Shown: positions 830-23,615 of the stretch, in pieces | How the letters are laid out: each line of letters opens with the position of its first letter | Position numbering within the stretch: the stretch's first letter is position 1 | Source: Yuukianura sp. NJ FZ-2021 | Taxonomy: Eukaryota | DNA length: 64,000 nucleotides | Reading direction: 5' to 3' | Assembly (NCBI GenBank): GCA_046563655.1 | Contig: CM102288.1 | Span: 186,001 to 250,000, forward strand | Position numbers and translations under genes: made by a program | Notes under the pieces: model-generated | The model's database searches: none | The model's input: only the letters and a program-made list of their open reading frames with translations | What the model was told of the DNA's origin: nothing

Positions 830-2049
830 TCAGCGCATAGAGACTTGAGACTGCGTTTTTTGAAGTTCCTTTTGTTGAGTTATTGAATGCTTAGACTTGT
901 CTTTGATGCTGGCCCTTGAAGGGGTGGGGGTCAAGGGGTCCTTGACCTCTAGGGGCTGACTAAGGTCAGCCTTGGGGTCAGTCCAGTTGAGGGGCACTTC
1001 CACTCTGTTCATTTTGCCTGAGGAAGTCCACCAATGTCGTTTGGTTATGGGGGAATCGGCGATGGGGCGAGCATAGTAAGGGAGGGGGTCAAGGGACGAC
1101 AGAGGGGGGTACTTCCCACCCCCAACAATCTCCATCTCCTTGTACAGCATCTCTGCTGAATCCTCTTCTTCTACGAAGAAAGCAACCACGAAAGCCATGA
1201 ACAAGTGAAGGAAAGTGTTGAAGATGCCCAGTATCTAAAAAGAAGTTAAGGGGTCATTGACCTCTGGGTCACACTAAAGTTGACCTTAAATCAGGGTCAA
1301 TGACTTACAATGACGAATATTTTGGTCCAGGACTCTTGACATGCGTAGGGCCTTCCCGTGAAGAGTTGGATGAAGCCTGATTCCAACTGTGGGAATTTGC
1401 AGGGGTGCCAAGGGACCCTGTCTGAAGGGACCCCTTCATACAGGATTTCAAAATGGCGGTTGTACTGCTCGTTGTTGTGGGCGAAGGACGTCGTGTAGCA
1501 AGCAGTTCCCACCAGAATAACAATGCAACCGAAGAGGTGAAAGTACATGTTCTAGAAGTGAAAAACTAAAAAGGTCAAAGGTCAAGGTCAAAGGTCATTG
1601 AGTTCTTACGATGTTCTTCCGGTAGTAGAGGTATGAGAGGAGGAAGCAGAGGTAGCAGTGAATGAGTGCCACTATGAACATGAATCCCCAAATGGCCAAC
1701 GCTGCTACTTGCGTGTCGTACTCTCGTTCCAGTGCTCGTTCAATGATAATTTGTTCTTCAAAGTTCAACCATTTGGACAACTTGTACTTTTTGTGTAAAA
1801 GCGCCAAGCGATCAGCGCTGTACACGTTTTTATTCCAGCGATAGTCGGCATTTGCACATAAAATTCCGAACAAGAGACAGACGATTTCGATTATCTAAAA
1901 AAACAGCAAAAAAAAGTTTTTGAATTTGTCCTAAAATATTTTGAAATTTTCAAATTTGGAACAAAATGAAAGTTTGTTCAAACATATTTGAACAAGGAAC
2001 TTACAATGGTAGTGAACTGGATAACTTTTGGTTGTTTCGGGTACACCAT
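830..2049 (-). CDS. Four-TM membrane protein (MARVEL/tetraspan-like topology), uncharacterised; 4 exons
   Basis: Exons 2049-2005, 1894-1610, 1551-1309 and 1234-830 join in frame via GT-AG introns (MVYPKQPKVIQFTTI|IIEIVCLLFG...|NMYFHLFG...|ILGIFNTFLHLFMAF...). Four hydrophobic segments, then a Pro/Ser-rich tail. Confidence 0.7.
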
Positions 2050-2159
2050 CTCGGTTTAACGCAGCAGCAGCAGCAGCTTAGTAGTTTCCGTTTTTCTTTT
2101 TTGAATCGTTAAAAAAATGCAGTTTTTAAAAAATTGATTCAAAACGCCCGTTTAAAAAA

Positions 2160-4139
2160 ATGTACAGAAAAGCACTGTTTGTTTTACTCCGTACGTAATT
2201 GACAACAATTTTTTTAAAAAGCAAAGGCGTTCATCAAGGCAACTTTAAATTTTATTTTTTACTAATTTTTAAAATTATATTTATGTTTTTATGGTATATT
2301 TTTGTTTTAGGTGCTCCACTACAAATTGAAGTGAACACGTACATTGTTGAGCTGCTGCATGTTGATGAATTTAACGAAGAGTTCACCCTTGACCTCTTCA
2401 TTCGTGAGTACTGGGTAGAACCACGCTTGACCTTTGTACCCAAACCAAACATCGGATCAACAATACATGTGAAGAAACCAAATTACACATTTTCAAACTT
2501 TGAAATCTAATTTTTTGAAAAATGAAAAACAATTAAAAATTGTGTCCTTAGCTGGATCCTGAACACTCTGCTTTAATCTGGTACGGAGCTCTGGGTGAAC
2601 TAGTAACTGAACTAAAGAGTAAATTATCAATTTGTAAATAAGTGTAAAGATTTGAATGGATTTGATGTTGGCCCTTAAGGGTCCCAGACACGTTTGTGGC
2701 CAATGAACGCAAGGAATCCTACTACGTGGACACCGTCATGCAGGAATGGATCCGAGTCAAATCAGATGGAGAAGTTCGCAGATCAGTCCGGTAAGGCAAA
2801 AATAAGTTTTAACAAAATCCTTTTTCAAAGAAGCAGTTTCGTTTTGAGAATTTTGACTTTTGTTAGTTTGCAATTTTTTGAATTTTGTCAACTTTAGAAG
2901 AACACTCACGGCGGCATGTCCAATGACATTCGTGATGTACCCATTCGACAGACATCTCTGCACTTTGGACATTGAGTCATGTATGACCTTTGACCTTTCA
3001 ATGACCTTTGACCTTGACATGTCAATGTTTTTGAGTAGTTCGGCAGGACAGTGAGAGTGTGCATTATGGATGGCGTGGAGGGTCAATCACGCCTGAACTC
3101 TTTTCCGCTGGAATTGCCTGGAATGCCACGAATGGAACTGTGGTGCCCTTCCGTGTGATGGCACTCCATGCAACGCAACATGAAATTGAATTCTCCAGTG
3201 GTAGGTCAATGACCTTTTAGTCCCAGAGGTCAGAGGTCAAATCTTTTGAATTTCAGGAAATTTTTCCCGTCTTGCTGTGGAAATTACTTTGAGGAAGTTC
3301 TGGGGCGTGTATTTCTCCAAGTACTACGTTCCGCTCTTCCTCTTTCTCTTGATTTCATTTGCAACTCTGTTCATCCGCACGGCTACGTTGAATTTCGCCT
3401 TGAATTTTGTTACTGTAAGTTCTACTTTTTAATAAAGGTCAAAGGTCAACTGAGGTCAATGACCTTTCACTTTCTAGTTGGTGACCTTTCACCTCTTCCT
3501 GCTCATCCCTGACATCGGAGCGAGTGTACCTAGAACAGAGTACTACAAAGCCAACGACATCTACCTCTACATCCACCTCGTCTTTCTCTACGTTTCATTT
3601 CTTGGTAAATTTTGTCAATTTCATAATTCAAAATTTTGAAAAATTCTAAACTTTGAAAACTCAAAAATCGAAATAATTTCAGTGAGTTTGGCAATTCTAA
3701 TTGGAAGGAAGAACCAGGAGCCAGGCTTTGAAGTAATACTAATTTAAAAAAAAGTTTTCGAAAAAAAAAATTGATTGGAAATTTCCAAATTTTTAAATTT
3801 TTCTAAAGTTTCATGAACCGAAGACGTATGTTCGCGTGAGCAAAGATCCAAGTCCAGATGAGAACAGCGGTGGAGACAAGTCAAAATCTCTTCATCACAC
3901 GCAGACGCAAACCACTTTTGAGAGTTCCATCCACAAGATCCTCAAGTAAGATTCAGTTTTTAATTAACTAAGTTTTTAGATTTAATTAATTAATTAACTT
4001 TAGGGTGTGTTCAATGCTGCGTTGGATCCTGACTGTGTCCTACTTTGTATTTCAATTTGTGTTCTGGATGGTCGTGCTCATTTGGGCACAAGCATACCTC
4101 TTGCCCGAAGAACTCGTTCTAGTGGACTACGACTTCTAA
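2160..4139 (+). CDS. Divergent Cys-loop ligand-gated ion channel subunit (anion-channel-like branch)
   Basis: Spliced translation gives FTLDLFIREYWVEPRL, WVPDTF (loop A), Cys-loop CPMTFVMYPFDRHLC, GNFSRL, M1 YFSKYYVPLFLFLLISF, PRTEYYKANDIY before M3, and M4 ending FWMVVLIW...DF*. The putative first exon 2160-2190 (MYRKALFVLL) is less certain. Confidence 0.85.
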
Positions 4140-7953: not shown

Positions 7954-9746
7954 CTAGACTGACCCAGAAGATGCTGGACTTCCCCTTCCCTGTCCATCAT
8001 TGTCACCTTCTTCTGCAAAACTGGAAGAGTCCGGATGCGGCGACGGTTGGCGACGTGCTGGATCGTCTGCTTTTTCAGTCGTGTCCATGTCTTCTGATTC
8101 ATGATTTGTAACTACTGGTTCCTTGTCTTTTTCAGGAGAAACTTCCTTATCTGCAAAGTTAAAAAAAGTGTTACTTTTTTATATAACATTTTATTAATAT
8201 ATTTATACATCCAATCATGGATGTAGATTGTAGAATACTGACCTTTGTCTTTGTCGTTGTTGCGATCACGGTGTCTACGACGCTCCTTACGATCACGATC
8301 ACGGCTCTTGCTCCTTGATCGACGACTTTTTCTGTCACGGCTCCGACTCTTAGACCGACGGTCCTTCCGATCACGACTTCTGCTCCGTGAGCGACGGCTC
8401 TTCCGATCCCGACTTCGGCTTCGAGACGACCGCTTTTTGCTCTTACTCTTGCTCCTGCTTCGAGACCGTTTGGATCGTTTCTTCCTATCCGAACTACGCT
8501 TCCGGTCTCTGAAAAATAAAACTAATCTTGAATCGATTTGAACGACAGTGCATGATAAATTGATTGATTACCTGGACGAATTCCGCTTTCGATCTCGCTC
8601 TTTGTCTTTATCCTTATCCCTGGAACGATCCTTATCCTTATCCTTCTTATCCTTGTCACGGGATCGGGAGCGATGTCGTTTCCTATCTCTGTCTCTGTCA
8701 CGATCAACATCTTTATCGTCACGACTGCGGCGACCACTATCACGTCCTCCACCGCGACGAAAACTGTCGTCCTTTCGTCGGTCGGAAGAAGAACGTTCTT
8801 CTCTTCTGCTGCTCAGTCTCCGCTCACGTTCAAGTTCCACTTGTTCGCGTTCATCCTCATCACGCTTCTGGAGTGCCTTTCGAACGTCTTCCATGCTTTT
8901 GCGCAACATGGCAAATCCAACATGCTGTTTTCCCATTATATGGTCATCAAGGCGATGTTGAGCCTCACCGATTATCAAGTATGATCCACAAACTTCGCAA
9001 ACTTGCATGGCCTTGTCAGGATTCCAGGGATGTGCAATTTCATTTGATCTAAACATTAATAACATCGTTAAAGATTAAACATCGTTAAGATTAATATCAT
9101 AAGGCACAGAGTGTATGAAACTGTACTCACTTTAGCTTTTCCCGTTCCTCCTTAATTTGGTCACAAAGTTTCATGATCCCCTGCGCCTTCTCGACGTCAC
9201 CTTCACATCCTGCTGCTTCAGCTTCTTCCAGAAGAGCATTGATCCTGTCCGTAAGAAGCACAATTTCTTCAGCATTCCTACTCCCCGGTCCAGCATAGAT
9301 TCCACCATCAGCTCCATTAGCAGCAGCTATTCTGTGTTTTCCTCTCTTAATCTTGCCCTCGATGTCGGACAGCATCTTCTCAGCAAATCGCAAGAACTCC
9401 TTCTCAAATTGGGATCTTTTGTAAGATGGAGCTTCCTCCTGGTACTTCTTGCGCAATTGATCATCGTGGAATTTGGAACAAGAACCCAGATCCGCCTTCG
9501 TGTTGACGAACAGTTCATGTGGACAGAAACAGACAAGGTAGTATGGACAAATCTAGAATCAGAAATGATTCTAATTCAACCTAATTGATGTTAATTAATC
9601 TTTCCAATCCAATTGTAAAAATCTATCGTAGCTACCTCTGGATCGTCCCACTGTATTTCCTTTGGAACGTCAGTTGGCAATGCATCGCGATTTCTTCCCA
9701 TGAGTTCATCCAAAATATTGGACATGAAATTTTTAGAAGCCATCAT
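7954..9746 (-). CDS. LUC7L3: Luc7-like protein 3 (U1 snRNP-associated splicing factor, RS domain)
   Basis: LDELMGRNRD N-terminus; zinc finger 1 CPHELFVNTKADLG; zinc finger 2 MQVCEVCGSYLIIGEAQHRLDDHIMGKQHVGF; long RS/RD-rich C-terminus. Exons join in frame; stop TAG at 7954-7956. Confidence 0.9.
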
Positions 9747-10137
9747 TGATAACTTTAGAATTGAAGATGAATTAGAATTAGAGCAAAAGGTGACCACCAC
9801 CGCGTTTCCGCTTGGCACCGGACACACAAAAAGTTAAGCTTCTTCGGTTTCCGGCGTTGGCTACTTCCGGGTCAATCACCAAATCAAAATTCGAAATGTT
9901 TGGAACAGAATCAGGATAGATTTAGTTAATTAACTAAAACCAATTAGCGAAAGTGTGAATAAAATGTAAAATCAAAACGCGAACGCGAAGCGAACCAATG
10001 CAGTCTGCAATCAGTAGCGTATAAGGTAAATGATTGCGAAACAAAAATTATATTTTTTAAATAATAAAAAAAAAATCAAACTTTTTCAAAAGCAGCGCCT
10101 AAATGTGAAATTTGGCAAAAATAGTTCAAAAGAGCTC

Positions 10138-10150
10138 CCACTAGATGGCG
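10138..10150 (+). promoter_or_regulatory. CTCF-like motif CCACTAGATGGCG
   Basis: Close match to the canonical CTCF core, lying between the divergent LUC7L3 promoter and the secreted-gene cluster. Motif match only. Confidence 0.4.
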
Positions 10151-10651
10151 ATATGCAAAGGCGTCTCATTTTTGAATTTTTTTTTGGTTTTCAAGATTTC
10201 GTCACATGCAAACTCAAAAATGAAGATCTCTGTGTCAAAAGGTCAACTTGGAAACCTTGTTAAGTGAATCGATAACTTTGAATGAATGAACAATTTTTGC
10301 TTTTTGGTCACTTTTCTCCTTAGCTATCTCAAAAGCAACTTACCTCTTGCATTTTGCAACAACAAATTTTGTGCAAGTTTTCACTTTTCAGGATTTGCAC
10401 TTAATCTATATCTGTGTCCAAGTCGCTTTCTCCTGAATTTGCACAAAATTTTGATATCAAATCTTTCAATTTTCACGAATTTTGCAAATCTGCTTCATTC
10501 TAAGTTGAACTTTGCCCAATTAATCTTTTTGGACTTCAATTCTCAGGTCACCAACCAGGTATAAATAGACTTTACTTTTTTGGAAATAGAAAGTTTAGTT
10601 TTTTGGAGAAACAGAAATTGTATCCAAAATTTGTTCATTTTGAAGTAAAAA

Positions 10652-11383
10652 ATGAAATTGTTGTTGTTGGTAGCCCTGTGCGTGGCTGCTGCTGCTGCTG
10701 CCGGGTCTTCCCAGGGCAAGAACCAGCAAAATGGTCGCTTCTACTTTTACAAAGTGAGGCCAAGGAATGCCCAGCAACTTGAAGTTCTGGTCCAGGAGCA
10801 CCAAGAATACGTAATGTCACTTCAACTTTAACATTTCCAAAATTTCGAATTTCTGAACTTTTGAAAATTTGAAATTTAAAAATTTTGAAGACTGTATTCT
10901 ATTTCAGGGAGACCATCCACCAGTGTGGGTCAACTCGTTCCGAGCTGGAGAATCCGCCTACTGTTTTGTGGACCAATCAAAAACGAGCTTCTTCGAACGT
11001 CTCCTTCGCCAGAACAAAATTCGGTGGGATTCCAAGGGCCTGTCTCTCGTTGAGTCCATTACTGCCAAGCAACCTAGTGCCGCTCAAGGTGAGTAGAGGT
11101 CAAAGGTCAAATGTCAAATATCAAATGTCAGGTCAGAGGTCAAAGGTCGTTGACTTGTGTTTCAGCTGAACCGAAGAACCCGTCGTGTGACTGTGACTAC
11201 CACTCTGGTGGGTGCATGATCAGTGAGCCACCACCGGAAGGCTATGCTTGCAAGTGTGTGTACAAGGGAGCATGGACTTGCACTGGCTACGCCTTCTCCT
11301 GTGACCCCGGAGTTCAGTGCCCTGCAAACTGCTCATCACTCGAATGCTGCAAAACTGGACGCGGAGACTGCGGCGGATACTAA
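10652..11383 (+). CDS. Secreted protein: signal peptide + M14 carboxypeptidase activation-peptide-like domain + 12-Cys C-terminal domain; 3 exons
   Basis: TATAAA at about 10560. Exons 10652-10810, about 10908-11088 and about 11166-11383: MKLLLLVALCVAAAAAAG...FYFYKVRPRNAQQLEVL...VWVNSFRAGESAYCFVD...CDCDYHSGGC...GDCGGY*. Confidence 0.75.
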
Positions 11384-11903
11384 AATTTCAAAAAATATCA
11401 ATTTTCAAAATCGACTACTATTTCGATTTTTCAAATTTAAATTATTTCAAATCCACTTTCCTCAAATGTCTCCGCTCAATGGCTCAATCCACGATCTTAG
11501 CTACAGCCCGAAAATTAGAAATTTCAGCCTTTCTGCAATAAAATTCTTAAACGACGCCAAAATTTGAAAATTATTTTAAAATGGTAACTGTGGAACAATA
11601 AAATTTAATCTGTACGGAAAAAACATCTTTCAAATTCTTATTTGAAATTGCTTTTTAGACAAAATCTGATTGACCCTGAGCGTTTTATGGTCAATTTCAA
11701 TTCACAGAATTTTTGTGACGTGCAAAGATTCATGTTGATTCATAATTTTTGCAGTTTCAAAGGTTAATTAAGCGCTAATTTAATCTATATTATTTTGAAG
11801 ACGTGATTTGTACTAATTAGAGGGAAAATATAAAAGTCCTGCTACCTTTCTTATTCTTCGCAGTTTTCAAAAAAAAATAATTGAAATTACACTTTTTACC
11901 ACG

Positions 11904-12266
11904 ATGAACAAAAATTTATTTTTGGTTTTCGTTACACTACTCTTCGTAGTGATTGTGTGTTGCTCTATCGCTGAAGTGGAGTCACGATGCGGTGAGAATC
12001 TCATTGAAAAAATAATTTAAAAAAATTATTAATGTAAATACATTTAATTCTTTGCTTAAAAAAATTAAAGCACGGCCTGGGAGATTCTGTATCAATCGCT
12101 TTTGTAACCTCTGCTGCGGAAACACACGTAAATTTATACTACAATTAATTAATTTATTATTAATTTTTAATGATTAATTTATATTATAAAATATTTAATT
12201 CATTGAAATTCATTTAATTCAGGAGGCTTCCCTTGTCTCAACGCCTTACGGAGACGCTGTTGCTAA
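11904..12266 (+). CDS. Small secreted cationic 8-Cys peptide precursor (62 aa), antimicrobial/knottin-like; 3 exons
   Basis: TATAAAA at about 11829. Exons 11904-11991, 12071-12127 and 12223-12266 (189 nt, two phase-1 GT-AG introns) give MNKNLFLVFVTLLFVVIVCCSIAEVES-RCARPGRFCINRFCNLCCGNTRGFPCLNALRRRCC*. AATAAA about 20 nt after the stop. Not in the ORF track. Confidence 0.8.
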
Positions 12267-12477
12267 CAAAACCAGAGCCGTTCAAAATAAAAGCAGTAAT
12301 TTAGCTCAAAGAAATTTTAATTTTGTTACAGATAAAATTGAAAATAAATTAGGCGGAGTTTAATTCATAAAATTTTAATTTTAATTACACCTTTACAAAT
12401 TCGAATTACTTTTGTCATGAAACATGAATTACTCCCGAATTACTTCTGAATTAGGTTTGTCATGAATTATTTGCGAA

Positions 12478-14494
12478 TTACTTGAAAAGGCGACGTAGAA
12501 ATGAATTTGTAAAAACTTGTTCTGGGTCATATTTTTTGAAAATTCGCGTACTGTACTCCCAATCTTCTCTTCCATAAACTTCCGGTGGATAATTGTCCAG
12601 AAAGTCCCAGTTGTCCCACCCAGCATCTTTAGAGTAAGCATAGCCCTTGGACCATTCTGGACGCACGATGACCCCTGACCTTGTCAAATTCTGCACCAAG
12701 TACTCCTCCACTCGAGCCATGAACTCCGCCATGTTTGGTGAATTGGGGTAGGTCAAACAGTCAATCCAAATGGCCGTGTCGTAGTCCTTTTTCCCTTCAA
12801 TTGGTTTAATCGGAGACAGAGCTGGTGACCTCAAGGTCAAGCCAGGGTCATCGTCTAATCCGGAGACCCTGATTTCCAGTGGACCATTCACAGGATACTT
12901 CCCAGCATCTGCATAATCCTGGATCAAATCTTCGTAAAATTTAGTAAATTCATGAAGTGTTGATTGGACCCTAGACCTTGGCAGTATCAGTGCATATCCA
13001 TTGGCTGTTACTCGGAGTGTTGTTGGTTTGACGTAGTGCAGAAGGTGGTATGAAGGACCCCAGAGGTCAAACGTCAATGTAGTTGCGAGTCCTGTAACCA
13101 AGGTTCGTAAATAAAAAAAAAACTTTTCTAGACTAGGTTGTCCAATAACTCGAAGTTTTAAAATTTGTTTGAAAGTAGCTTTGGCTTTTTTGCATGTATA
13201 ATAAATGGGATTAAAAGTTGTCTGGAGCAAGATTTTTGAAAACCCAGAGTTATTGGACAACCTGTTGTAGGAAATACAAGTCGGTTGTCAAGGAACCTTG
13301 CCTGTAGCAATGATGCTGATTTGAAGATTTGCAAAAGCTGGAGCCATTGACCATGACCCTGTGACGAGTTTATCTGCTAAGTTGTTGACTGGTTCTGGAA
13401 TGTTGTCTGTAAAAACGTAGTTGTAGGGCGCATGCGTGCGGCGGGAAAGTAACGGTTTTGTGTCTGCGACGGACCAAACTTTGAGCCACGGATTCAATGT
13501 AAACGGAAACCAAATTGCTTCGAGACTGCCGTAAGAGTCTAGGAAAAAGCTTAACGGTGTGTCACCAAATTTCAAGTTTTTGGGACTTTGAAATAGCGTT
13601 TTAGCTGAAATGTCAACTCTGCTTATACATCTTAGGTAGGTCAATGGGGTCACTTCAAGTGTCACTTTGGTAATAAAAAGACGACCGAGATTCAGAATCA
13701 AAGCGCGGGAATCGGGATGTGAGCGATGAAAAGTTTGAATTTCAAATTCTTCCGCGTCGGCATTCCACACGACAAGGTCGATTGACAAAACCAAGTTGCT
13801 CAAAGTACCGCGGTTGCCGGTTTGACCTTCCATAGGAATTCCTGTCCCGTGACCTCCAATGGCAATGACCCCTCCGACAGTAACGTCGCCCGGTGCTGGA
13901 TGACCCAGAATGCCGTGACCTTTGACCTCCAGAAAAGCAAGCAGATCTTCCCAAAGAACGCCAGATTCCACCGTGACTGCTTTTATGCCGTGATGAGTTG
14001 TCATTTTAATAGAGGTCAAATTTTTCGTCGTGTCCACCAGAATGGTGCGACTGCAGTGCCCTTCTTCTCCGGTGATAGTAAGAGGTGACCAGTTGTGCAT
14101 TTGACCCAGTGGTCGAACGTTGTAGCGATGGCGACGTGCCCAGTTGGCTATGGCGACAATGTCGCCAGCACTTTGAGGCGTCACGGTCCAAATGTGGTCC
14201 AGTTCGATTTGTTTGGCCCAGTTGAGATAAGAACTTTCTTGGACAGAGAGATGCTCGGGAAAGTTTGAAAGACCATTGCAAAGCAGTTCTATTAAGAAAT
14301 GAAATGAAATTCAAAATCTCAAAATTTCAAAATTTTTGAAAAATGTAAATTTTGAAGTTACGTTTCGGGGGAATCTGATGGAAACGAGTTTGAGAGGTGA
14401 CAACTTGTTCCTGATTGGCACAAATCCGGGTATTGTTAACAATGGACCAAACGAGACAAGGAATCAAAGAACTTGGGAGCAAACTAGTCTGCAT
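12478..14494 (-). CDS. Class II (covalent-FAD, VAO-fold) cholesterol oxidase-like enzyme, bacterial type; 3 exons, 577 aa
   Basis: Exons 14494-14362, 14288-13302 and 13091-12478 join in frame. Motifs RPLGQMHNWSPL (FAD-linked His), PAPGDVTVGGVIAIGGHGT, APYNYVF, YPVNGPLEIR and RPEWSKG match the Brevibacterium/Burkholderia-type cholesterol oxidase family as I recall it. Confidence 0.85.
13099..13300. mobile_element. 202-bp non-autonomous TIR element (hAT-like MITE) forming intron 2 of the cholesterol oxidase gene
   Basis: TIR CAAGGTTC (13099-13106) / GAACCTTG (13293-13300). Symmetric subterminal inverted 17-mer AGGTTGTCCAATAACTC (13135-13151 vs 13247-13263). Flanking 8-bp direct repeats CCTGTAAC (13091-13098) / CCTGTAGC (13301-13308). 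Confidence 0.85.
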
Positions 14495-15474
14495 TTTTTA
14501 AAATTTTGAAAACTGTTGCTAGAAACGAACAACTTGAATCCTGGTTTAGAAATGACTTGAAATGAAAAAGGTAAGCTGTAAGCTTTTTTGAGTTTTGAAA
14601 TAGTAAGGATCCTTTCGAAATGTTTCAAAATCTTGAAATAGCCTATATTGAAACAAGGTTTTAAAAAAGAAGTAACAAAAATGGATTACGTTTTAGGTGG
14701 TGAAACAACCTGCTGTATGTTCTTTTTAGATTTTTAACGAACTGACGATTGACAAAAGAATAATTAAAAAACAACAATGCAAGATTATTGCGTAATTTAC
14801 GCAACGTCTAAGAAGAAATGGAATTCCGCATCTAAATGTTCGTAGCTAAGTAGTTTCTCAATCGTGAGATTATGTTTAACATTAGTGATTTTAGGAAATA
14901 AGATGAAATTTTGAAATTCAGATATTTAGTTTATAGTTGTACAAATTAACGTCTACATGAATACAATATCTGTATTAAATTTAAAAAATGCTAAAAGCTA
15001 AAGAAAAAAGTTCTAAAAATTAGACTTAATTTATAAATGCTTATTCACTAGCGCTTTGGCTAGACATGTGCACACGTTTGCTCCAATTTTCGTCTTAATC
15101 ATGTCGTAAATTAAATGGCATCAAACAGGATTTCAATGTACCCTGTGATATTTTATAAAAATTAAGAGTATGTGCTTAGTAATTACAGAAATAAATTACT
15201 AATTAATAGACAGTTTAACAACTCTATTCATGGTTACTAATCTTGTTTGAAATATTTTATCAGCGGTGCACATATCTAATAGACTTGGAAATTACTTCAA
15301 GGGAAATTTGAATTCCCGCCTTTCTTAAAACTCTTTTGCATGCTGTTCTGTGTGACTCAATTTCCTCTCCTCTTTCTTTTGACCTCAACTTCCTTCCTCG
15401 TGTGGACGTCCACTTAACTCCCCTCTGATTAATCGATTAATTAACACAAGTTTAACTTAACTCTACAATTAAGA

Positions 15475-18400
15475 ATGGGCAGTGAAGAAGAGCAATTCGG
15501 ACAGATCGTCAATACGTTCCTGTCAACAGACAATGAAGTCAGAGTCCAGGCAGAGGTAGGAATTTAATTATTGCAATTTAACAACTTATCATTTTAACAA
15601 CTCACCACGTGTTTCATCAGTTTCCTTGCTTATGGAGTTATGGATGTGTCAATCATGTCAACATTTTATGAAATATCAGATTAAACTCAACGATTAACGT
15701 TACCCAACACACGGTTATAAAATGTTTTATCTTTCATTTCAAGAAATTGCGTAATTGATTTGACGGATCAGCGATAGTTTTCCAAAGTTAAGCACCGGCG
15801 CAGCTGTTTAGTCATGTCAATTTTGTTATTTAATTAGTCTATTATTTAATTTAATTCTAATATAATTAATTGTTGATTTAGGCAAGCTACGATGGTATTC
15901 CAGCTGACAAGAAGATCTTCTTCCTCCTAACACTTCTTCGAAATGGTGATTTGGCAGAAGACTTTCGTCAACTCTGCGCTGTTTTACTCCGACGACTCTT
16001 CGTCGGTAATTTTGAATTTGCATGGAACTTGGTAAGTACATAACGAATCTATCGAACTTCATGAGGTTTATTTTAGTTTCATAATTGTATTTCTTATTCC
16101 AGCTTTCACCAGAGCATCAGAAGCAAGTGAAAGATGAAATCAGCGCCCTCGTTTCGCGAGAGAACGAGAGCATGACGATGCGGAAGAAGATGTGTGATAT
16201 GGTAGCCGAACTCGTCCGAAATCTAATTGATGACAATGGGAACAATACGTGGGGAGAATTTTTGACTTACTTGTTTCAACTCGTCAACAGTCCAGTTCCA
16301 GCTCTCAAAGAAAATGCTCTCCTCATCTTTGCCGCCGTTCCAGGAATCTTTGGAAACCAACAAGTCAATTACCTGGACTACATCAAACAAATGCTGGGAC
16401 AAGCTTTTCAGTCTGAAGTGTTCTCGGTCCGATTTCATGGAGCTCGAGCTCTGGCTTACTTTATCGTGGACAATGAAACGCAAGAACCAGTTCTCAAACA
16501 CTTCTCGGACCTTCTACCACACTACTTGAAAGTCATGCAAGAATCTGTTACGCAACAAGAAGATGACGACTTGCTAAAGATGGCAATTGAGCTCATCAAC
16601 GGAACTCCGAAGTTCGTGAGACCATTCTTAGCTGACTTTCTGAACTTGAATCTCCAAATTGCCAAGGCAGGAGAAATCGACGAAGACTGGAGACATTTAG
16701 CCATTGAATGCTGTGTAACTGCATCAGAAACGTTACCAGGAGCTGTCAAGAAAGTTGCTCCAGAATTTATTCCATTGCTGGTTCAAACGGTAATTATTAA
16801 AAAAACTTTGACCTTTGCCCTGACTCTGATTGTGATTGCATGTCTTCTTTTTGATCAGCTGTTGAGCATGATGACTGAATTGGACGAAGAGGATGACTGG
16901 GCCACGTCAGATGAGCCATGCGATGATGACTCAGATAGCAATGCGGCAGTGGGAGAATCTAGTTTGGATCGTTTGGCATGCGGATTAGGAGGAAAGACGA
17001 TTCTGCCAATGGTTATGGCTCAGGTTCAAACAATGTTGGGACATGCCAATTGGCAACATCGATATGCTGGTCTCATGGCCGTGTCAGCAGTTGGAGAAGG
17101 ATGTCTCAAGCAAATGGAACCAATGCTACAGCAAATCGTGGATCCAATCCTGGGATTCCTTCGTGATCCAGTAAGATTCAAGTTTTTCTTTTTACAATAA
17201 AACTGAATTATGATTCAATTTTAATTAATTTTGTACAATTAGCATCCTCGTGTTCGATACGCCGCTTGCAACGCCTTAGGCCAAATGGCAACTGACTTTG
17301 CTCCTTCGTATGAAAAGAAGTTTCATGCCAAGATTCTGCCAGGCTTGACATTCCTCTTGGACGACTACAGCTGTCCACGCGTTCAAGCCCATGCTGGTAC
17401 GAAAGTTCTTTTTCAAAATACTTTTCAAAAAACTGAAAACTGAACTGTTTCTAAAAAGTATTTCCATTGCCAATATGTTTAGGTGCTGCGTTGGTAAACT
17501 TTTGTGAAGAATGTCCGAAGGACATCCTCAAGATGTACTCGGAGGCTCTTTTGTCCAAACTGGAGAGTTGCTTCCAACAGAAGCTGAAGGAATTGGCTGA
17601 GAGCAACAAGAAATTGGTACTGGAGCAGTTGGTGACAACGGTTGCCTCTGTTGCCAACACACTGGAAACTGACTTCATTCCTTACTACGCAAGATTCATG
17701 CCCTGCATGAAGTATATCATGCAACATGCAAATGCTGTGGAACTTCGTTTGCTTCGTGGAAAAACGATCGAGTGTGCTTCATTGATTGGACTGGCGGTGG
17801 GTGCTGATCAGTTTACGAACGATGCTTCGGACATCATGGATCTCCTTCTGCGTACTCAAATTGACAATGGTAAATAAATGTGTTAAAAATGAGTTATAAA
17901 AATAGCATTACTTTTGAAATGAGATTTTCACTTTCAAATTTTCACTTTGACTTTCAGGAGGAGTACACATTGCCGATGATGATCCACAACTGTCCTACAT
18001 GATTACTGCGTGGGCAAGAATCTGTCAAATTCTAGGTAATAATTTGCCTAATTTGATCTTCCGAAATCCAATTCAACTAACAAACTTTTTTATGAGTTTT
18101 TTTTGTTCAACTTTTATGTTCTAACTCAAAGGTGATCGGTTCGCACCATATTTGCCGATGGTCATGGCCCCCGTGCTAAGAACTGCTGCTGTCAAACCCG
18201 AATTGGCTATGCTGGATTCTGATGAAACTGAGGTAAGAAAGTGACTTGAGACTTGGACTTCAATTTTTTCTGCCTCATGTTCAAAAAATATTCAGAATTC
18301 AAAAAATTCTCTACGTTTTGTGTTGATTTTAGGAAATCAAGGGAGCTGAAGATTGGGAGTTGATTCAGTTGGGAGATTCGCAAAGTGTTGGTTTGCATAC

Positions 18401-19987
18401 GGCTAAGCTGGAAGATAAGTCCATGGCTTGTCAAATGTTGGTCTGCTACGCTCGTGTCATGAAAACTCACTTTCGACCATTCGTCGATGAGGTATTTATT
18501 ATTGAATTAATGCGTTTTGTATAATTTTACTTAATTTTTTAATTTTATATTTTAGGTTGTCAAAATCATTCATCCGTTGTTCAAGTTTTACTTTCACGAC
18601 TCGGTGCGTTCGTCTGCTGCAGAATTGGTTCCATACCTTCTACAATGTTTGGAAGGAGACCAATCTGCGCAAGTGATGCTGTGGAATCACATCAAGGGAG
18701 AACTGTTTATTGCAACAGAGGCAGAAGTGGAACCGGAAGTCAAGAGTGAGCAATTGGCAGCAATTGCAGCAGCAGTGGACATTTTACCCAAAGAAGCCTT
18801 TGATACAGACACAATTCAGAAGATGACAGGCATAGTGGAGAAAGTGTTCACAGAACATTTTGAGCGGTCAGCAGAGCGAGCAGAGACACGGAAGGATGAG
18901 GACTTTGATGAAGTTGTGGAGCAGCAACTGTGGGATGAAGCGGAAGAGGACAATTATGTTCTCACGAAAGCAGCCGACATCACGCACGCCTTTCTCAAGT
19001 CTCATGGAGAAGCATACTTGGCCTACTTGGAGCCGAAAGTGCTTGAGCAAGTGACGAAACTCATTGCACCGGACAGACATTGGCAAGAGAGACAATGGGG
19101 CATCTGTATCTTCGATGACATTATAGAATTCACTGGACCAATGGCTGCCAAATACTACCAGCTCTTTGTACCCCAATTGCTGCAGTATGTCTCGGACTCA
19201 ACGTCGGAAGTACGACAAGCAGCAGCATACGGATGTGGACTCATGGCTCAATACGGGGGAGTACCATTTGCAGGTATTTTCAAGTTTTCGCACTTTCTTA
19301 TAAGCAAAAATACCGTATTTCCTCGCCTAAAAGCCTAATTTATACTCGGTTTTCCCGGGAAAATTTTTCGAAATTTCTCAGATAACACGTAGTCTTACAC
19401 GGTAGTATTATGTAAAATGTAAAACTTTGAATTTTGAATTTGTTTGAACAGAAACATGCTCCCAGGCGATGCAACTTTTGGTCAGAATTGTGACTGCACC
19501 GGATTCACGTGAAGAGGAAAACATCTTTGCCACTGAAAACGCCATCTCTGCTGTTGGAAAAATCATCAAATACTCCCCGACGAACTTGAATCCGACAGAA
19601 GTTATTCCGATGTGGTGAGTGGAAAAAAATTACGCTAATTTTTAAATTTTTGGAAAAGTATAATGGTTTTCATTTTTTTTAACGTTTAGGCTCTCCTGGC
19701 TCCCAATTTGGGAAGACAAGGATGAAATGGAATCCGTTTTTGGATTTTTCTGTGAACTTTTGGAGACGGATTCCCCAGCAGCCATTGGAACGAACGGAGC
19801 CAACCTTCCTCTGATTGTGCGTATTATCGCTGATACTTTTCTGCGTCAAGTCCTTCCGGATGACTCACCCATTCGACCAAGATTGATTCAATTGCTAACC
19901 AAGATCCGAGGAAATGCAGAACTCTTTCAATATTGCTTCAATCAATTGTCACCGGAACAGCAGACTGCTCTCCATCAAGCAGTTTGA
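15475..19987 (+). CDS. IPO5: Importin-5 (karyopherin beta-3 / RanBP5), multi-exon
   Basis: HEAT-repeat protein with [83 protein letters not shown] and [12 protein letters not shown]. Confidence 0.95.
19311..19404. mobile_element. Degenerate Tc1/mariner-type MITE in an IPO5 intron
   Basis: Starts TACCGTATTTCCTCGCCTA, nearly identical to the TIR at 20617, and ends ...GTCTTACACGGTA. Confidence 0.5.
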
Positions 19988-20616
19988 ACTAAAAAGCACA
20001 GTTCTGACACTAAAATACTTTAGCAACTTAAGGAAGTCGTCGCCTGCAAACGTTGCAACTTGCAAAACTATGCTTATACTTTTTAGAAAGAGATCGCTAT
20101 TTACGCAATCAGGTTTAAAAATTATCTTTTTTGGTTCATGTTATAATTGGAGACAGTTTTCTTTAAAATCTTTTCTCTTTTGTGTTTTCTTGTTGAAATC
20201 CGAGGTTGCCAGTTTTCGTTTTTTGGTTGAAACATTCGACGTTGCCTTTTTTGTTTTCTATTGTCATTTTGGTTTTAGAAATCAAGATTATTTAAAAATT
20301 GAAAAACTATTGAATTTCAAAATTTTGTTAGAATATTATGAGGGTTTCAGGGTGGTTAGGGCAGGCTTGTGAAGAAAGTGAAGTGATATTGGGTCATATA
20401 GTGGAAAAAATTGTTGTTTTGTTTCTTGAAATGAAATTTTATCGGTGGAAATATTATTAAATTGACTTGAAATAAATGTATAGTCGGACTATATTCCTTT
20501 TTAATAAGTTCGGAATGAATAATTTAATAGTTTTAGTCTTAATTAAATAAGCTTGTTTGAAGGGCTACTAGGCTTAGAATGAGGAACTTGGCGAGAGGAC
20601 TTGTTTAGGAAGGAAT

Positions 20617-20670
20617 TACCGTATTTCCTTGCCTATAAGAAACGCGTCTTATAAGCGAGGAAATACGGTA
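20617..20670. mobile_element. 54-bp palindromic mini-MITE with TA ends (Tc1/mariner-like CCGTATTT TIR)
   Basis: TA-CCGTATTTCCTTGCCTATAAGA-AACGCG-TCTTATAAGCGAGGAAATACGG-TA: near-perfect inverted arms flanked by TA. Confidence 0.65.
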
Positions 20671-20701
20671 GTTTGTGTTGCAGGCGAGGAAATAGGGTAG
20701 T

Positions 20702-21521
20702 TTAGACATTGTGGAGTCTCTCGCAACTGGAACTGCGTGAACTGAGGATGAGGAGCATTGAAAAGCGAGAAGTTCGCAAGTAGTCAAAGATTATCCAGAT
20801 TTCGTAGATTCGGACTGCTGCAAAGAGGAGGAGGAGGAGCCAGTTGATGTTGGTTGAAATTATGGTAACCACGGATACCGTAATCACTCCGAGTAAGGTC
20901 AGAGTGCAACAGTAGATGAGCCACGCTTTGATTGGAAACGCCCAATCCTACATATACATAAAATTTTAAATTACTTTCCCAAAAATTTAACAAAACTTTT
21001 CCAAAAGTTGTGGAGAACTGTAAGCTGGAAGAAGTTGAGTAAATTTTTGAAATTCCGCAAACCTTTCGAACGCCAAAGAACAATCCGAGTGCCAAAATGA
21101 GGAACACGACGCTGAGGATGAGGACTAAAATCATTTGATCGTGCAATCCTGAAATTCACAGAATCAGATTTGGAAAATTTTTTAACCAATTTTTAAAAAT
21201 TTGTACTAGTCGAAGTGTCTTACGCCCAAAAGTGTCGAGTCGTGACTGCAAATTTGCAATACTGTAGTGGTCACTCCCAATTTCATTTTCAAATTCTGAC
21301 TCCAAAGGACCAAAAACTTTTTCCAAGTCACACAGAGCTACAATACTTAGGATGAGGGCCACAGTTCCCAAAATCTGTTCACAATTTCCAAGAAACACAA
21401 ATTATGAAAAGAATAACTTTCAAAATTTTGGAGTTTTTTTTTAATTTCTTACGATGTCCACAATGGCTATGAGGTAGGCGGCTGGTTTTGGCGGAAGGGC
21501 ATAACAATACGTTCTTGTCAT
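20702..21521 (-). CDS. Small four-TM protein (LAPTM/DUF4728-like topology); 4 exons
   Basis: Spliced MTRTYCYALPPKPAAYLIAIVDI|ILGTVALILSIVAL...|LHDQMILVLILSVVFLILALGLFFGVRK|DWAFPIKAWLIY...RIYEIWIIFDY...*. The LFFGVRK-x-PIKAW pattern is typical of such tetraspan proteins. Confidence 0.65.
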
Positions 21522-22007
21522 TTTGAACTGTTTACATGTATTGAAGTGACAGTTAATTGATTAGTTAATTGCTCAAGGATTAACTAACTTTGATCCAGGT
21601 AAATAATTAATGAAACTACGCCTTGTTCTTTTATTTTTTGGCACCTCCTCAAAACAGGGAACCGTTTGTCTACTCAAGTATTGATTTTCACCAAAGAGAA
21701 AGCTATCATGCGCTTCACTTTTTATAAGTGTTTTTATACCGCACTGTTCCGAGTAAAGTCGAAAGGAAAGTTGTGTTTTCCGCATTTAGAAAAAAAACAT
21801 CTACAAAATTTTGAAATTTTGAAAAGTGAGAGATGCACGACAAAGAAATGTTGGGATGATGACGTTCATGTAAAAGTAAAAGCTTTTCATTTTATTTGTG
21901 AATAGTTTCAACTTTGAAACGTATATTAAACAATGTAGTTTACATAATGAGCAGAGGAACAAAGTTACAGAAAATTTAGATTAAGATGTTTTTGATGATT
22001 TATGAAA

Positions 22008-22677
22008 TTATTGTGGCGTAGTTTTTCCAGGGCGGCAGATGAACTTTGACCCCTTGGCAGTAGGCTTTGACGGAGACGGTTTGAATGCGCATGCTTCGCA
22101 TTTGCCACAAGGTTGGTACATCGGAGGAGGTGGAGTGGGGAGCATGACGATTCTGGGTTCAGAGTTGACCTTTGACCCTGCACTGTCTCCTCCCCCGAAT
22201 CCTTGACCTTGACCTGGAGAAGCGAAGCCGCCGTGACCTTGGCTCAAAAACTGGCCCAAATCGCCAGGATTCCCAACAGCAATTCTGAAAGTGGCTGGCT
22301 GTTGACCTTCGACCTCTGCAATAAAAAGACAAGGTCAATGACCTCTGTTACTATAATGCTTTGGTTTATGTTAAAAGTGTTTGACCTTCTCGGATTCCAG
22401 TGCCAGTGTAATATCCAGAACTTTGTTGACCTTGACCTTGACCTTGGAAGGGGTAGGGGACTGCACTGATGCCGTTGTAGGTGCTGTTTGCATTGGGAAG
22501 GACGAAGGGTGAAGTTCTAGAGGTCGTTGACCCTCCTTGACCTTGAGCTGCCCCCAGAATGTCTCTCCAGTCCATCGTCACCACTTGGACATTCCGCTGA
22601 TCTTGGAGGCCATTTTGGTTCGACTGTTGATTATGTCCAGCCACACAGTTCCAATTCCAGTTTCCAGCATTCATCAT
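22008..22677 (-). CDS. Gly/Gln-rich low-complexity orphan protein with CxxCxxC near the C-terminus; 2 exons
   Basis: ORFs 22366-22677 and 22008-22259 join through an intron at about 22385-22317. It shares the motif NVQVVTMDWRDILG with the gene at 47481-48480. Confidence 0.55.
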
Positions 22678-23615
22678 TGGAAAAAGTGTGAAACTACTTG
22701 TTCAGAAGAGGTGTAAAAACTATTGATTCCTTCACTAGTAATTAAAAAAAATTGAGCTATTCAATTAAAAAAATGAACTTTTCAATTGAAAAGGTACGAG
22801 TCTTTTAATTCCAATGTTTATAATGTCTAAGTTTCAAACATGTTTTGTTCACATGGCAACAAAACAAAATTAAAATGAAAGGCATTTAAAAAGAGAGGGC
22901 GACAACAAATAAAATTTCCAATGTTTTCTCGCTTTCAATAAAAATTTTACTTTCACTGTGCGTTGGCTTACATCTCAGACAAGGTTAATCATCATTCACT
23001 TGTCCATTTGGTCGAAGTAAACTTTATGGTGGGCAATTGTTTTCCAATTTCGGGAACAAATTCGGCAAAACGGCCACTCGATTTTTTACGATTAAAATTT
23101 CGTTTTATATCAACTTTTGGGTGTAGATTCCGAATCTGAAATCCGTTTAATTGTTGCTGTTAAATGCTAACCAAACCTAAAATATAAGCCCAATTTCGAA
23201 ATTTCAAGTATAAAGGTTTTGTTGACTTCTACCGTTGGTTTTGTATACGCATTAAATCGATTTACACATATAGTTCAATAGAGTGCTGAAAAACGCTGAA
23301 AATGGTTTAAGTACATAAAGTCATTGCTTTTTCTTGATCAAAACGCACTAGAAATTGAAATTTTAAGAGGACAGTTTGGACTGAACCATTTTAGGAGACG
23401 ATTATGATCTTTAATTAAAACACTTCCATAAAAACCCGAAAATTACTCCCAATTTGAGCTTAATTGAAAAAGAAACAATAAACTTCCTATTCAATTTTGA
23501 TCACTTTTTATTTAAAAGGGACGCTGCCTTTTTTTAGTGAAAGTCAGCCAACCAGGTCCGTGTTTTGCTAAAAGAAAATTTCTCATTTTTTGAACAGAAT
23601 TTTTCAAAATTGAAA

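What the first reader, a model, noticed from the sequence alone, without database searches (positions are those of the whole stretch)
13091..13308. Introner-type intron gain caught in a bacterial-type gene: intron 2 of the cholesterol oxidase is a MITE plus one TSD copy
On the coding (-) strand the sequence reads ATT-GCTACAGG-[CAAGGTTC...202 bp...GAACCTTG]-GTTACAGG-ACTC. The 5' splice site is a non-canonical AG|GCAAGG: the G comes from the first target-site copy and the C from the TIR. The 3' site is the CAG| inside the second target copy. Removing 13301-13092 (210 nt = element + 8 nt) restores one target copy and the frame IIATG-LATTLTFDLWG, in line with the intronless bacterial enzymes; unspliced, a stop follows three codons later (GKVP*). 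Symmetric subterminal 17-bp inverted repeats 36-37 bp from each end support a TIR element, and an 8-bp TSD is typical of hAT. Seen: TIRs, TSD, frame. Known: the Introner mechanism of TIR transposons creating introns. Inferred: that it is spliced in vivo and that a family of such elements exists in this animal.
Basis: partly seen in the sequence, partly recalled or inferred. Interest (0 to 1): 0.92.

Follow-up and report, generated by a model that had tools for sequence, protein, structure and literature searches.

The report
Transposon-made intron in borrowed bacterial gene
A small jumping-DNA element that is present in hundreds of copies in this arthropod's genome landed inside a gene the animal once acquired from bacteria, and the element plus its duplicated landing site now look exactly like a removable intron, a rare clear view of how new introns are born.

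Summary
On the minus strand a 202-bp element (13300..13099) has perfect 8-bp terminal inverted repeats and 17-bp perfect subterminal inverted repeats. It is flanked by GCTACAGG / GTTACAGG, a 7/8 match.

The element belongs to a high-copy family. In public DNA runs hundreds of contigs match it and lose similarity exactly at 13300 (176, 117 and 77 contigs in three runs).

Removing 13301..13092 (210 nt, GC..AG) gives a product colinear with 40 of 40 bacterial homologues and with solved cholesterol oxidase 3js8. Best protein matches are bacterial at 49% identity or less, and the gene lies between animal genes. The intron was therefore gained after a horizontal transfer.

Splicing is inferred, not shown, because no RNA run was available. 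Indirect support: 10 of 15 exonic variants are synonymous, including variants downstream of the intron in a haplotype that carries the element.

hAT affiliation fits (8-bp duplication, CAAGG terminus) but is unproven. Whether other copies also form introns could not be tested.

Verdict: a real transposon-derived intron, a new member of a known kind.

The parts
13099..13300 (-). 202-bp non-autonomous TIR element (MITE), an imperfect palindrome with no coding capacity
   Evidence: Its ends are confirmed by other genomic copies: loose ends at 13300 number 176 contigs in X1, 117 in X2 and 77 in X5, and loose ends also fall at 13098/13099.
13293..13300 (-). 5' terminal inverted repeat, CAAGGTTC on the coding strand. 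It supplies positions +2 to +6 of the splice donor.
   Evidence: pair I5, 8/8 complementary.
13099..13106 (-). 3' terminal inverted repeat, GAACCTTG on the coding strand
   Evidence: pair I5.
13301..13308 (-). Upstream copy of the target-site duplication (GCTACAGG). Seven bases are exonic (codons Ala-Thr-G). The last G is the first base of the intron.
13091..13098 (-). Downstream copy of the target-site duplication (GTTACAGG). It supplies the acceptor CAG, and its last G is the first base of the next exon.
   Evidence: The match to the upstream copy is 7/8, P = 5.5e-4 at fixed ends.
13092..13301 (-). Inferred GC-AG spliceosomal intron, 210 nt, phase 1. The donor is CAG|GCAAGG and the acceptor is TTACAG|G.
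   Evidence: Removing it gives an open 1596-nt frame colinear with 40/40 homologues and with 3js8. Splicing itself was not observed.
13113..13122 (-). T10 run inside the element, 21-30 nt upstream of the acceptor. It is the probable polypyrimidine tract and is present only in this orientation of the element.
   Evidence: Sequence. Its function is inferred.
13124..13163 (.). Subterminal inverted-repeat arm, paired with 13235-13274. This copy differs from the family majority at 13131 and 13134.
   Evidence: (pair I1, 40 nt, 80%) and table 3.
13235..13274 (.). Second subterminal inverted-repeat arm
   Evidence: In the RNA fold it pairs with the other arm.
13302..14288 (-). Exon before the intron: the FAD-binding PCMH domain and the first third of the cholesterol-oxidase substrate-binding domain. 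The 5' limit is approximate.
   Evidence: Pfam PF01565 (1.2e-15) and PF09129 profile positions 2-107. It aligns to 3js8_A residues 2-324.
12478..13091 (-). Exon after the intron: the rest of the substrate-binding domain, including the stop codon at 12478-12480
   Evidence: Pfam PF09129 profile positions 111-320, E = 2.6e-62. It aligns to 3js8_A residues 331-536.
14400..14494 (-). Putative first exon: ATG at 14494-14492 followed by a hydrophobic, signal-like start. The donor position is not settled.
   Evidence: Sequence and ORFs. The downstream exon has no start codon of its own. This part is inferred.

Best explanation
An arthropod acquired a bacterial type-II (covalent-FAD, PCMH-fold) cholesterol oxidase gene by horizontal transfer. 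The nearest named relative of the neighbouring importin-5 gene is from a springtail.

Later, a 202-bp MITE of a high-copy family inserted into the codons Ala-Thr-Gly and duplicated the 8-bp target G(C/T)TACAGG.

The insertion built a complete intron by accident:
- The last G of the upstream target copy plus the element's terminal CAAGG make a GC-type donor, CAG|GCAAGG. This matches the U2 donor consensus at 7 of 9 positions.
- In this orientation the element brings a T10 tract to just upstream of its 3' end.
- The downstream target copy supplies the acceptor, ACAG|G.

Splicing therefore removes the element plus exactly one target copy (210 nt). That restores the original reading frame without adding or losing a residue.

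Shown here: the element, its family, its exact ends, the duplication, colinearity after removal, and the bacterial affinity of the gene. Inferred: that the spliceosome uses these sites, that the gene is functional, and that the element is of the hAT superfamily.
For: 1. **Anatomy.** Perfect 8-bp TIRs, 7/8 flanking direct repeat and a palindromic body.

2. **Family.**
 - Contigs laid: 1817 in X1, 891 in X2 and 435 in X5.
 - Summed depth over the element against the flanks: X1 58,000-134,000 vs about 230; X2 9,800-23,000 vs about 32; X5 1,300-3,000 vs 3.6.
 - Loose ends at 13300: 176, 117 and 77 contigs. Their flank consensus has low agreement (0.4), which means many different loci.

3. **The insertion is real at this locus.** Independent short-read contigs bridge both junctions:
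 - X1 record 4, 12760-13164
 - X2 record 10, 12459-13164
 - X2 record 15, 13259-14700
 - X5 record 20, 13250-13645

4. **Colinearity after removal.**
 - The Pfam profile runs from position 107 to 111 across the junction.
 - 40 of 40 full-length bacterial homologues align without a gap.
 - 3js8_A runs through residues 328 | 329 | 330.

5. **The gene is of bacterial type but sits in an animal chromosome.**
 - The best 120 hits are at 49% identity or less, and every named one is bacterial.
 - Its neighbours are a LUC7-like gene and importin-5.

6. **Coding constraint with the element in place.**
 - Of the 15 exonic variants shown, 10 are synonymous and 5 are conservative.
 - The expected synonymous share is 0.23-0.29, giving P = 0.0004-0.0025.
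 - The X2 record-10 haplotype contains the element's 3' part and has 5 synonymous and 2 non-synonymous differences in the downstream exon (P = 0.009-0.023).

7. **RNA fold.** The intron RNA folds with the two TIRs paired, which brings the splice sites together. MFE is -47.6 kcal/mol, z = -4.62, and 0 of 200 shuffles fold as well.

8. **Precedent.** Introners that carry one splice site and co-opt the other from the target duplication are described in PMC9860276 (passages read).
Against: - **No transcript evidence.** Expression and splicing of this gene are unobserved.
- **Non-canonical donor.** It is GC, and in the folded RNA it is paired with the 3' TIR.
- **Imperfect duplication.** It matches at 7/8. 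Five of its bases (ACAGG) also resemble generic exon-end/acceptor consensus, so its weight rests on the family-defined element ends.
- **Small variant sample.** There are 15 variants, taken from a truncated table (40 rows shown, 95 not shown).
- **Uncertain independence of the runs.** Organisms A and B share haplotype variants, so they may be one species.
- **Weaker support for the left element end.** 19 contigs in X2 end at 13098 and 4 in X5 at 13099, probably because the T-run stops alignments earlier.
- **Superfamily unproven.** No autonomous partner was found in the window.
Confidence: 0.78

Rival explanations
1. Disrupted gene. The MITE insertion is a plain insertional mutation that is not spliced out, or only inefficiently. 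The protein then ends at GKVP*, and the locus is a pseudogene or is becoming one.
For: The donor is non-canonical (GC). No RNA evidence exists. The unspliced frame stops three codons into the element. The family's other copies sit in AT-rich, apparently non-coding flanks, so the element is not specialised for genes.
Against: Both exons are fully open and in compatible phase. 10 of 15 exonic variants are synonymous (P = 0.0004-0.0025). That count includes 6 of 8 in the exon downstream of the element, in haplotypes that carry the element. The donor matches the consensus at 7 of 9 positions, with a T10 tract and a CAG acceptor in place.
Confidence: 0.14
2. Another in-frame splice is used. For example, the same donor with the acceptor at 13128|13127 (tctag|aaaag) would leave 36 nt of the element in the mRNA and add 12 residues.
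For: The alternative model is also open in frame (1632 nt, no stop). Introners that add codons are known (Aureococcus example in PMC9860276).
Against: The 12 extra residues are absent from all 40 homologues. No pyrimidine tract precedes that acceptor, because the T10 run lies downstream of it.
Confidence: 0.04
3. An older intron already sat here, and the MITE later inserted into it.
For: MITEs often sit in introns. This copy is not brand new, with 5 or more differences from the family majority.
Against: Only 8 nt of the 210-nt intron lie outside the element, and those 8 repeat the exon's last 8 bases. An 8-nt intron cannot exist. The ancestral gene type is prokaryotic and intronless.
Confidence: 0.02
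4. Chance or artefact: a palindromic intron that only looks like a transposon, or an assembly error that placed a repeat here.
For: The TIR+TSD pattern occurs at 4 places in the window. There is no second copy of the element in the 64-kb window.
Against: Hundreds of contigs from three runs match the element and end at its termini. Contigs from runs that differ from the window at nearby exon positions bridge both junctions.
Confidence: 0.01

Closest known systems
Introner elements with TIRs and target-site duplications that co-opt a splice site from the duplication (Micromonas/Aureococcus type; survey in Gozashti et al. 2022, PMC9860276, passages read; review PMC11282704, passages read)
   Same: A short non-autonomous DNA transposon carries part of the splicing signals, and the rest comes from the duplicated target. 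Splicing removes the element plus one duplication copy, so mRNA length does not change. GC-AG borders are common among such introns in some lineages (PMC11282704).
   Different: Only one intron-forming copy is documented here. Flanks of the other copies are AT-rich and give no sign of gene preference. [quoted passage not shown] Both splice sites are composite or derived from the duplication: the donor G comes from the duplication and CAAGG from the TIR.
hAT-derived introners and hAT MITEs (Dataset S2 of PMC12130899 lists DNA/hAT families such as Salvia splendens fam1, passage seen; hAT features in PMC3014272, passage read)
   Same: 8-bp duplication, a terminal motif that fits YARNG (CAAGG), short TIRs with subterminal repeats, and high copy number.
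   Different: No transposase or autonomous partner was seen. The duplication length is known from one locus only, so superfamily membership is not established.
Maize Ds insertion spliced as a new intron (Giroux et al. 1994, PNAS 91:12150). Seen only as a reference entry in PMC2586383; the content is recalled and the paper was not held.
   Same: A hAT-family non-autonomous element inserted into an exon and is removed by the spliceosome, creating an intron de novo.
   Different: That case is a laboratory or recent mutant allele in a plant. The present case is a natural allele present in all sampled haplotypes of an animal, in a gene of bacterial origin, and excision appears exact.
MITE-derived non-canonical introns of the tunicate Fritillaria borealis (Henriet et al. 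2019, known here only through the review PMC11282704)
   Same: Introns in an animal genome that trace to transposon insertions and use non-GT donors.
   Different: In Fritillaria the phenomenon is genome-wide, with AG-AC/AG-AT borders and a modified spliceosome. The border here is the ordinary minor GC-AG class and needs no special machinery.
Type-II bacterial cholesterol oxidases (PDB 3js8, 1i19)
   Same: PF01565 + PF09129 architecture. Full-length colinear alignment (E = 7e-83 and 3e-47 for the two exons). The GGHG histidine motif is conserved.
   Different: The gene is encoded in an animal chromosome with at least two introns and a eukaryote-style signal-like first exon. Identity to any database protein is 49% or less.

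Membership tests
Transposon-derived spliceosomal intron (introner mechanism) | Intron borders coincide with the borders of a transposable element plus its target-site duplication | tested here: met
   The intron 13301..13092 equals the element 13300..13099 plus 8 nt. The element ends are fixed by other copies.
Transposon-derived spliceosomal intron (introner mechanism) | The element belongs to a multi-copy family of similar sequences | tested here: met
   1817, 891 and 435 contigs were laid in X1, X2 and X5. 176, 117 and 77 of them diverge at 13300. In X1, 132 are at 99% or more and 341 at 95-99% likeness.
Transposon-derived spliceosomal intron (introner mechanism) | The intron is absent from the ancestral or orthologous gene | tested here: met
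   40/40 bacterial homologues and 3js8 are colinear across the site. No eukaryotic orthologue was available to compare.
Transposon-derived spliceosomal intron (introner mechanism) | The element is removed from the transcript by splicing | not testable with these tools
   No RNA run holding the gene was listed. There is indirect support only, from synonymous-biased variation.
Introner family in the strict sense (Gozashti et al. 2022/2025) | Many copies of the same family form introns in different genes | not testable with these tools
   No genome is held. The window holds only one copy. Flank consensus of the other copies is AT-rich with 0.4 agreement, which does not suggest exon targeting.
MITE | Short, non-coding, with terminal inverted repeats, a flanking duplication and high copy number | tested here: met
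   202 bp, 8/8 TIR, 7/8 8-bp duplication and hundreds of contigs.
hAT superfamily | 8-bp target-site duplication | tested here: inconclusive
   One locus only, with a 7/8 match over 8 bp (6 bp are perfect). Family-wide lengths could not be measured.
hAT superfamily | Terminal motif YARNG | tested here: met
   The termini read CAAGG. The motif is as stated in PMC3014272.
hAT superfamily | Autonomous partner encoding a hAT transposase with the same termini | not testable with these tools
   No transposase domain was found among 32 ORFs of 110 aa or more in the window. The rest of the genome could not be searched.
GC-AG class of U2-type introns | GC donor with otherwise strong consensus, a pyrimidine tract and an AG acceptor | tested here: met
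   CAG|GCAAGG, a T10 run 21-30 nt before TTACAG|G. Use in vivo was not tested.
Type-II cholesterol oxidase (PCMH/VAO fold) | FAD_binding_4 plus the cholesterol-oxidase substrate-binding domain, colinear with solved enzymes | tested here: met
   PF01565 at 1.2e-15. PF09129 at 4.9e-29 and 2.6e-62. 3js8_A at 7.2e-83 and 3.3e-47. Enzyme activity was not tested.

The most novel reading that the evidence does not exclude
This MITE family may be an active intron-maker in a land arthropod. With a GC-donor-ready terminus (any target ending in AGG yields CAG|GCAAGG ... CAG|G) and hundreds of copies, it would have seeded further exact, frame-neutral introns in other genes, including other horizontally acquired genes. 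That would be the first introner-like family in a terrestrial hexapod, and a route by which bacterial genes acquire animal-style introns.
Probability: 0.2. Interest if true: 0.8.

Novelty: new member of a known kind. Interest (0 to 1): 0.6.

Why it matters
How new spliceosomal introns arise is a long-standing question. Transposon insertion is now the leading answer, but well-resolved single events in animals are few. Known introner-bearing species are almost all aquatic, unicellular or fungal (PMC12130899). That survey lists the two springtail genomes it screened with zero families (Dataset S1 passages).

Here the ancestral state is certain, because the gene type is prokaryotic and intronless. 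Every piece of the new intron can be assigned to a source: the duplication, the TIR, or the element's T-run.

The case also shows how a horizontally acquired bacterial gene becomes 'domesticated' with introns. It gives a directly testable system through RT-PCR, minigenes with the element in either orientation, and a genome-wide census of the family.

Tried and rejected
- **Whole-genome search for copies.** No genome is held for this window.
- **Second copy in the window.** None was found, only the element's own inverted arms.
- **Earlier notes of this scan.** Nothing was found for this genome or for look-alike sequence.
- **RNA evidence.** No RNA holder was listed. The one run guessed to be RNA (X6) laid only 2 contigs, on 14235-14560 and away from the intron, so it says nothing about splicing.
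- **Empty-site allele.** None of the 15 joints shown skips the element. A further 89 joints were not shown, so absence cannot be claimed.
- **Metagenome scans for copies with flanks**, to measure duplication length. A 24-mer pattern gave 0 hits. An 18-mer gave 13 single hits that match only 17-30 nt and have GC 0.34-0.70. These are chance matches, not copies.
- **Autonomous transposase in the window.** None was found among 32 ORFs.
- **Raised depth over intron 1** (14244-14405). It traces to a 40-nt low-complexity motif with weak copies elsewhere in the window, not to a second MITE.
- **Giroux et al. 1994.** The paper could not be read because it is not held.
- **Search for 'introner' with 'Collembola'.** It gave one incidental paper.
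- **Search for 'cholesterol oxidase' with horizontal transfer and springtail.** It gave no report of such a gene.
- **Supplement file 13 of PMC12130899.** It was not searched.
Full report
**1. The observation**

The minus strand at 13308..13091 reads GCTACAGG | CAAGGTTC ... GAACCTTG | GTTACAGG, followed by ACTC. The repeat finder reports two inverted pairs:
- the 8/8 terminal pair at 13099-13106 / 13293-13300;
- a 40-nt, 80% pair at 13124-13163 / 13235-13274, placed symmetrically about 25 nt in from each end, with a 17-nt perfect core.

The 202-bp element aligned to its own reverse complement gives 138 identical of 219 columns. The score is 100, against a mean of 2.3 (sd 14.9, max 56) for 300 shuffles.

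The two 8-bp flanks match at 7 of 8 positions, not 8 of 8. For ends fixed in advance, P(8/8 inverted repeat) = 2.3e-5 and P(7 or more of 8 direct repeat) = 5.5e-4.

A window-wide scan for the same pattern found 4 places. My arithmetic from those probabilities expects about 0.3. The pattern alone is therefore not decisive.

**2. The gene**

Two long open frames on the minus strand, 14310..13288 and 13287..12478, abut at the element.
- The first carries PF01565 (FAD_binding_4, 1.2e-15) and positions 2-107 of PF09129 (cholesterol oxidase substrate-binding).
- The second carries positions 111-320 of PF09129 (2.6e-62).
- Against solved structures, the first exon aligns to 3js8_A residues 2-324 (7.2e-83) and the second to residues 331-536 (3.3e-47). 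Counting the unaligned end residues, the junction falls at 328 | 329 | 330 with nothing missing or extra.
- Unspliced, the frame ends ..IIATGKVP followed by a stop.

A database search with the first exon gave 543 hits among 1774 candidates. The best 120 are listed at 49% identity or less, and every one that carries an organism name is bacterial: Micromonospora, Plantactinospora, Sorangium, Streptomyces and others.

The gene lies between a LUC7-like gene (8.1-9.6 kb, minus strand) and importin-5 (16.1-20.4 kb, plus strand). GPCR, LITAF, MYND, CUB and LDLa exons lie further on.

The importin-5 exon's best named match is the springtail Orchesella dallaii at 56%. Insects follow at 48% or less. The host is therefore an arthropod, probably a non-insect hexapod. 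The oxidase is a horizontally acquired gene integrated in an animal chromosome, so any intron in it was gained after the transfer.

**3.

No genome was available, and the window has no second copy. One sequencing-run search found four DNA runs of organism A, one of organism B and one doubtful RNA run. I laid X1, X2, X5 and X6 on 12300-14700 at 80% likeness.

| Run | Contigs laid | Summed depth, three element bins | Flank depth |
|---|---|---|---|
| X1 | 1817 | 57,911 / 134,463 / 62,607 | about 220-320 |
| X2 | 891 | 9,768 / 23,197 / 10,531 | about 23-40 |
| X5 | 435 | 1,363 / 2,966 / 1,323 | 3.6 |

The tool warns that summed depth is not a copy number. The contig counts make the same point:
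- Loose ends pile up at 13300: 176 contigs in X1, 117 in X2 and 77 in X5. One base further on there are 30 in X1 and 24 in X2.
- The flank consensus has only 0.4 agreement and is AT-rich, which means many different loci.
- At the other end, loose ends are listed at 13098 (19 contigs, X2) and 13099 (4, X5). More stop at 13113, beside the T-run.
- Only 18 of 449 loose-end rows were shown.

In X1, 132 laid contigs are at 99% or more likeness and 341 are at 95-99%.

Most copies differ from this one at 13131, 13134, 13222, 13225 and 13246. The central 50 nt or so (about 13165-13215) is covered at only 84-486, so the family shares the arms and varies in the core.

**4. The insertion is real at this locus and in all sampled haplotypes**

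Contigs bridge the right-hand junction (X1 record 4, 12760-13164; X2 record 10, 12459-13164). Others bridge the left-hand junction (X2 record 15, 13259-14700; X5 record 20, 13250-13645). X1 record 5 has only 30 letters inside the element, one short of the tool's bridging rule.

All three runs differ from the window at 13345, 13347, 13357 and 13360, so they are not simply the window's own reads. X2 and X5 share further variants, so organisms A and B may be the same or sister species.

No empty-site joint is among the 15 joints shown. A further 89 were not shown.

**5. Removal of the element plus one duplication copy restores the gene**

In a script I removed 13301..13092 and aligned the product with homologues. 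These were the first 40, by id order, of the 120 proteins listed whose length is 540-580 aa.

All 40 are colinear across the junction, and the Thr-Gly-Leu at the junction is conserved. The only gaps in the +/-10-column window are the columns opened by an alternative model, which used an acceptor at 13127 and would add 12 residues absent from all 40.

Only 8 nt of the intron lie outside the element, and they repeat the exon's last 8 bases. A pre-existing intron is therefore excluded.

**6. How it most likely works**

The intron reads CAG|GCAAGG ... T10 ... ACGAACCTTGGTTACAG|G.
- The donor's first G is the last base of the upstream duplication copy. CAAGG is the TIR.
- The donor matches the U2 donor consensus CAG|GTAAGT at 7 of 9 positions. 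This is typical of the GC-AG class, whose members compensate for the C with an otherwise strong consensus (established knowledge).
- The T10 run at 13113-13122 is internal to the element and lies upstream of the acceptor only in this orientation.
- The acceptor CAG is in the downstream duplication copy.

Any insertion of this element, in this orientation, into a target ending in AGG would therefore create an exactly excisable phase-neutral intron.

The intron RNA folds with the TIRs paired to each other, which brings the two splice sites together. MFE is -47.6 kcal/mol, z = -4.62, and 0 of 200 shuffles fold as well.

None of this was observed in RNA.

**7. Indirect evidence that it is spliced**

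Of the 40 variant rows shown (95 more were not shown):
- 15 lie in the two exons;
- 10 of those are synonymous;
- 5 are conservative replacements (V>M, V>I, I>V, and two in one codon that together give M>L).

The expected synonymous share is 0.23-0.29. That gives P(10 or more of 15) = 0.0004-0.0025.

In the exon downstream of the intron, 6 of 8 variants are synonymous (P = 0.003-0.009). The X2 record-10 haplotype includes 66 nt of the element and has 5 synonymous and 2 non-synonymous differences there (P = 0.009-0.023).

A frame that is read only after removal of the element is thus under purifying selection in chromosomes that carry the element. The sample is small and the table is truncated.

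**8. Age**

This copy differs from the family majority at 5 or more positions, its duplication has one mismatch, and all sampled haplotypes have it. The insertion is recognisable but not brand new, so 'caught in the act' overstates it.

**9. Comparison with what is known**

- Gozashti et al. 2022 (PMC9860276, passages) describe introner families that carry one splice site and take the other from the duplication. They also describe families that take both from the target and families that add codons.
- The review PMC11282704 (passages) notes GC-AG predominance among introner-derived introns in some dinoflagellates. It also notes MITE-derived non-canonical introns in the tunicate Fritillaria.
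- Gozashti et al. 2025 (PMC12130899, abstract and sections 5-6) find 1,093 families in 201 species. [quoted passage not shown] TIR transposons make up about 82% of the classified families.
- In that paper's supplements (passages only), Dataset S2 contains DNA/hAT families. Dataset S1 lists Folsomia candida and Orchesella cincta with zero. File 13 was not searched.
- hAT elements are characterised by 8-bp duplications and YARNG termini (PMC3014272, passage). CAAGG fits.
- A maize Ds element spliced as a new intron (Giroux et al. 1994) is recalled. I saw it only as a reference entry, and the paper was not held.
- A search for 'introner' with 'Collembola' gave one incidental paper. A search for cholesterol oxidase with horizontal transfer and springtail gave no such report.

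**10. Verdict**

This is a MITE-derived, duplication-assisted GC-AG intron in a bacterial-origin gene of an arthropod.

It is a new member of a known kind, not a new mechanism. Its value is the clarity of the case and the unusual host.

Still open: splicing in vivo, hAT membership, and whether other copies of the family also form introns.

Noticed in passing
window 12478-14494 (minus strand), neighbours at 8112-9552 and 16085-20372: The cholesterol oxidase looks like a lineage-restricted horizontal acquisition. No database protein exceeds 49% identity and all named hits are bacterial. It sits between a LUC7-like gene and importin-5. Literature searches found no report of such a gene in springtails.
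   Followed up: partly
window 13165-13215: The centre of the element is rare in the family. Depth is 84-486 there, against 24,000-145,000 on the arms. Many contigs join the arms with other or shorter cores (joints skipping 33-105 nt). The family shares its arms and has variable cores.
   Followed up: no
window 14244-14405: The presumed first intron shows 3-5 times the flank depth in the DNA runs. This traces to a 40-nt low-complexity motif at 14315-14356, which has weak copies at 3617, 46097, 47932, 50067 and elsewhere.
   Followed up: yes
window 3210-3441, 22310-22526, 23335-23503: Three more places have a perfect 8-bp inverted repeat 80-420 bp apart, flanked by a 7/8 8-bp direct repeat. These may be other MITE families. 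None has a second copy in the window, and their relation to exons was not examined.
   Followed up: partly
window 13345, 13347, 13357, 13360: All three DNA runs differ from the window at these four exonic positions. Two are in one codon (M>L) and two are synonymous. The window therefore represents a haplotype not seen in those runs.
   Followed up: partly
window 14235-14560: The run guessed to be RNA (X6, another organism label) holds two contigs identical to the window over the first exon, the presumed first intron and the start of the next exon, and nothing else of the gene. This could be DNA carry-over or intron retention, and it was left unexplained.
   Followed up: no
window 11093-11383 (plus strand): A 96-aa open frame rich in cysteine (CxC, CC motifs) lies between the oxidase and the LUC7-like gene. 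It was not searched.
   Followed up: no
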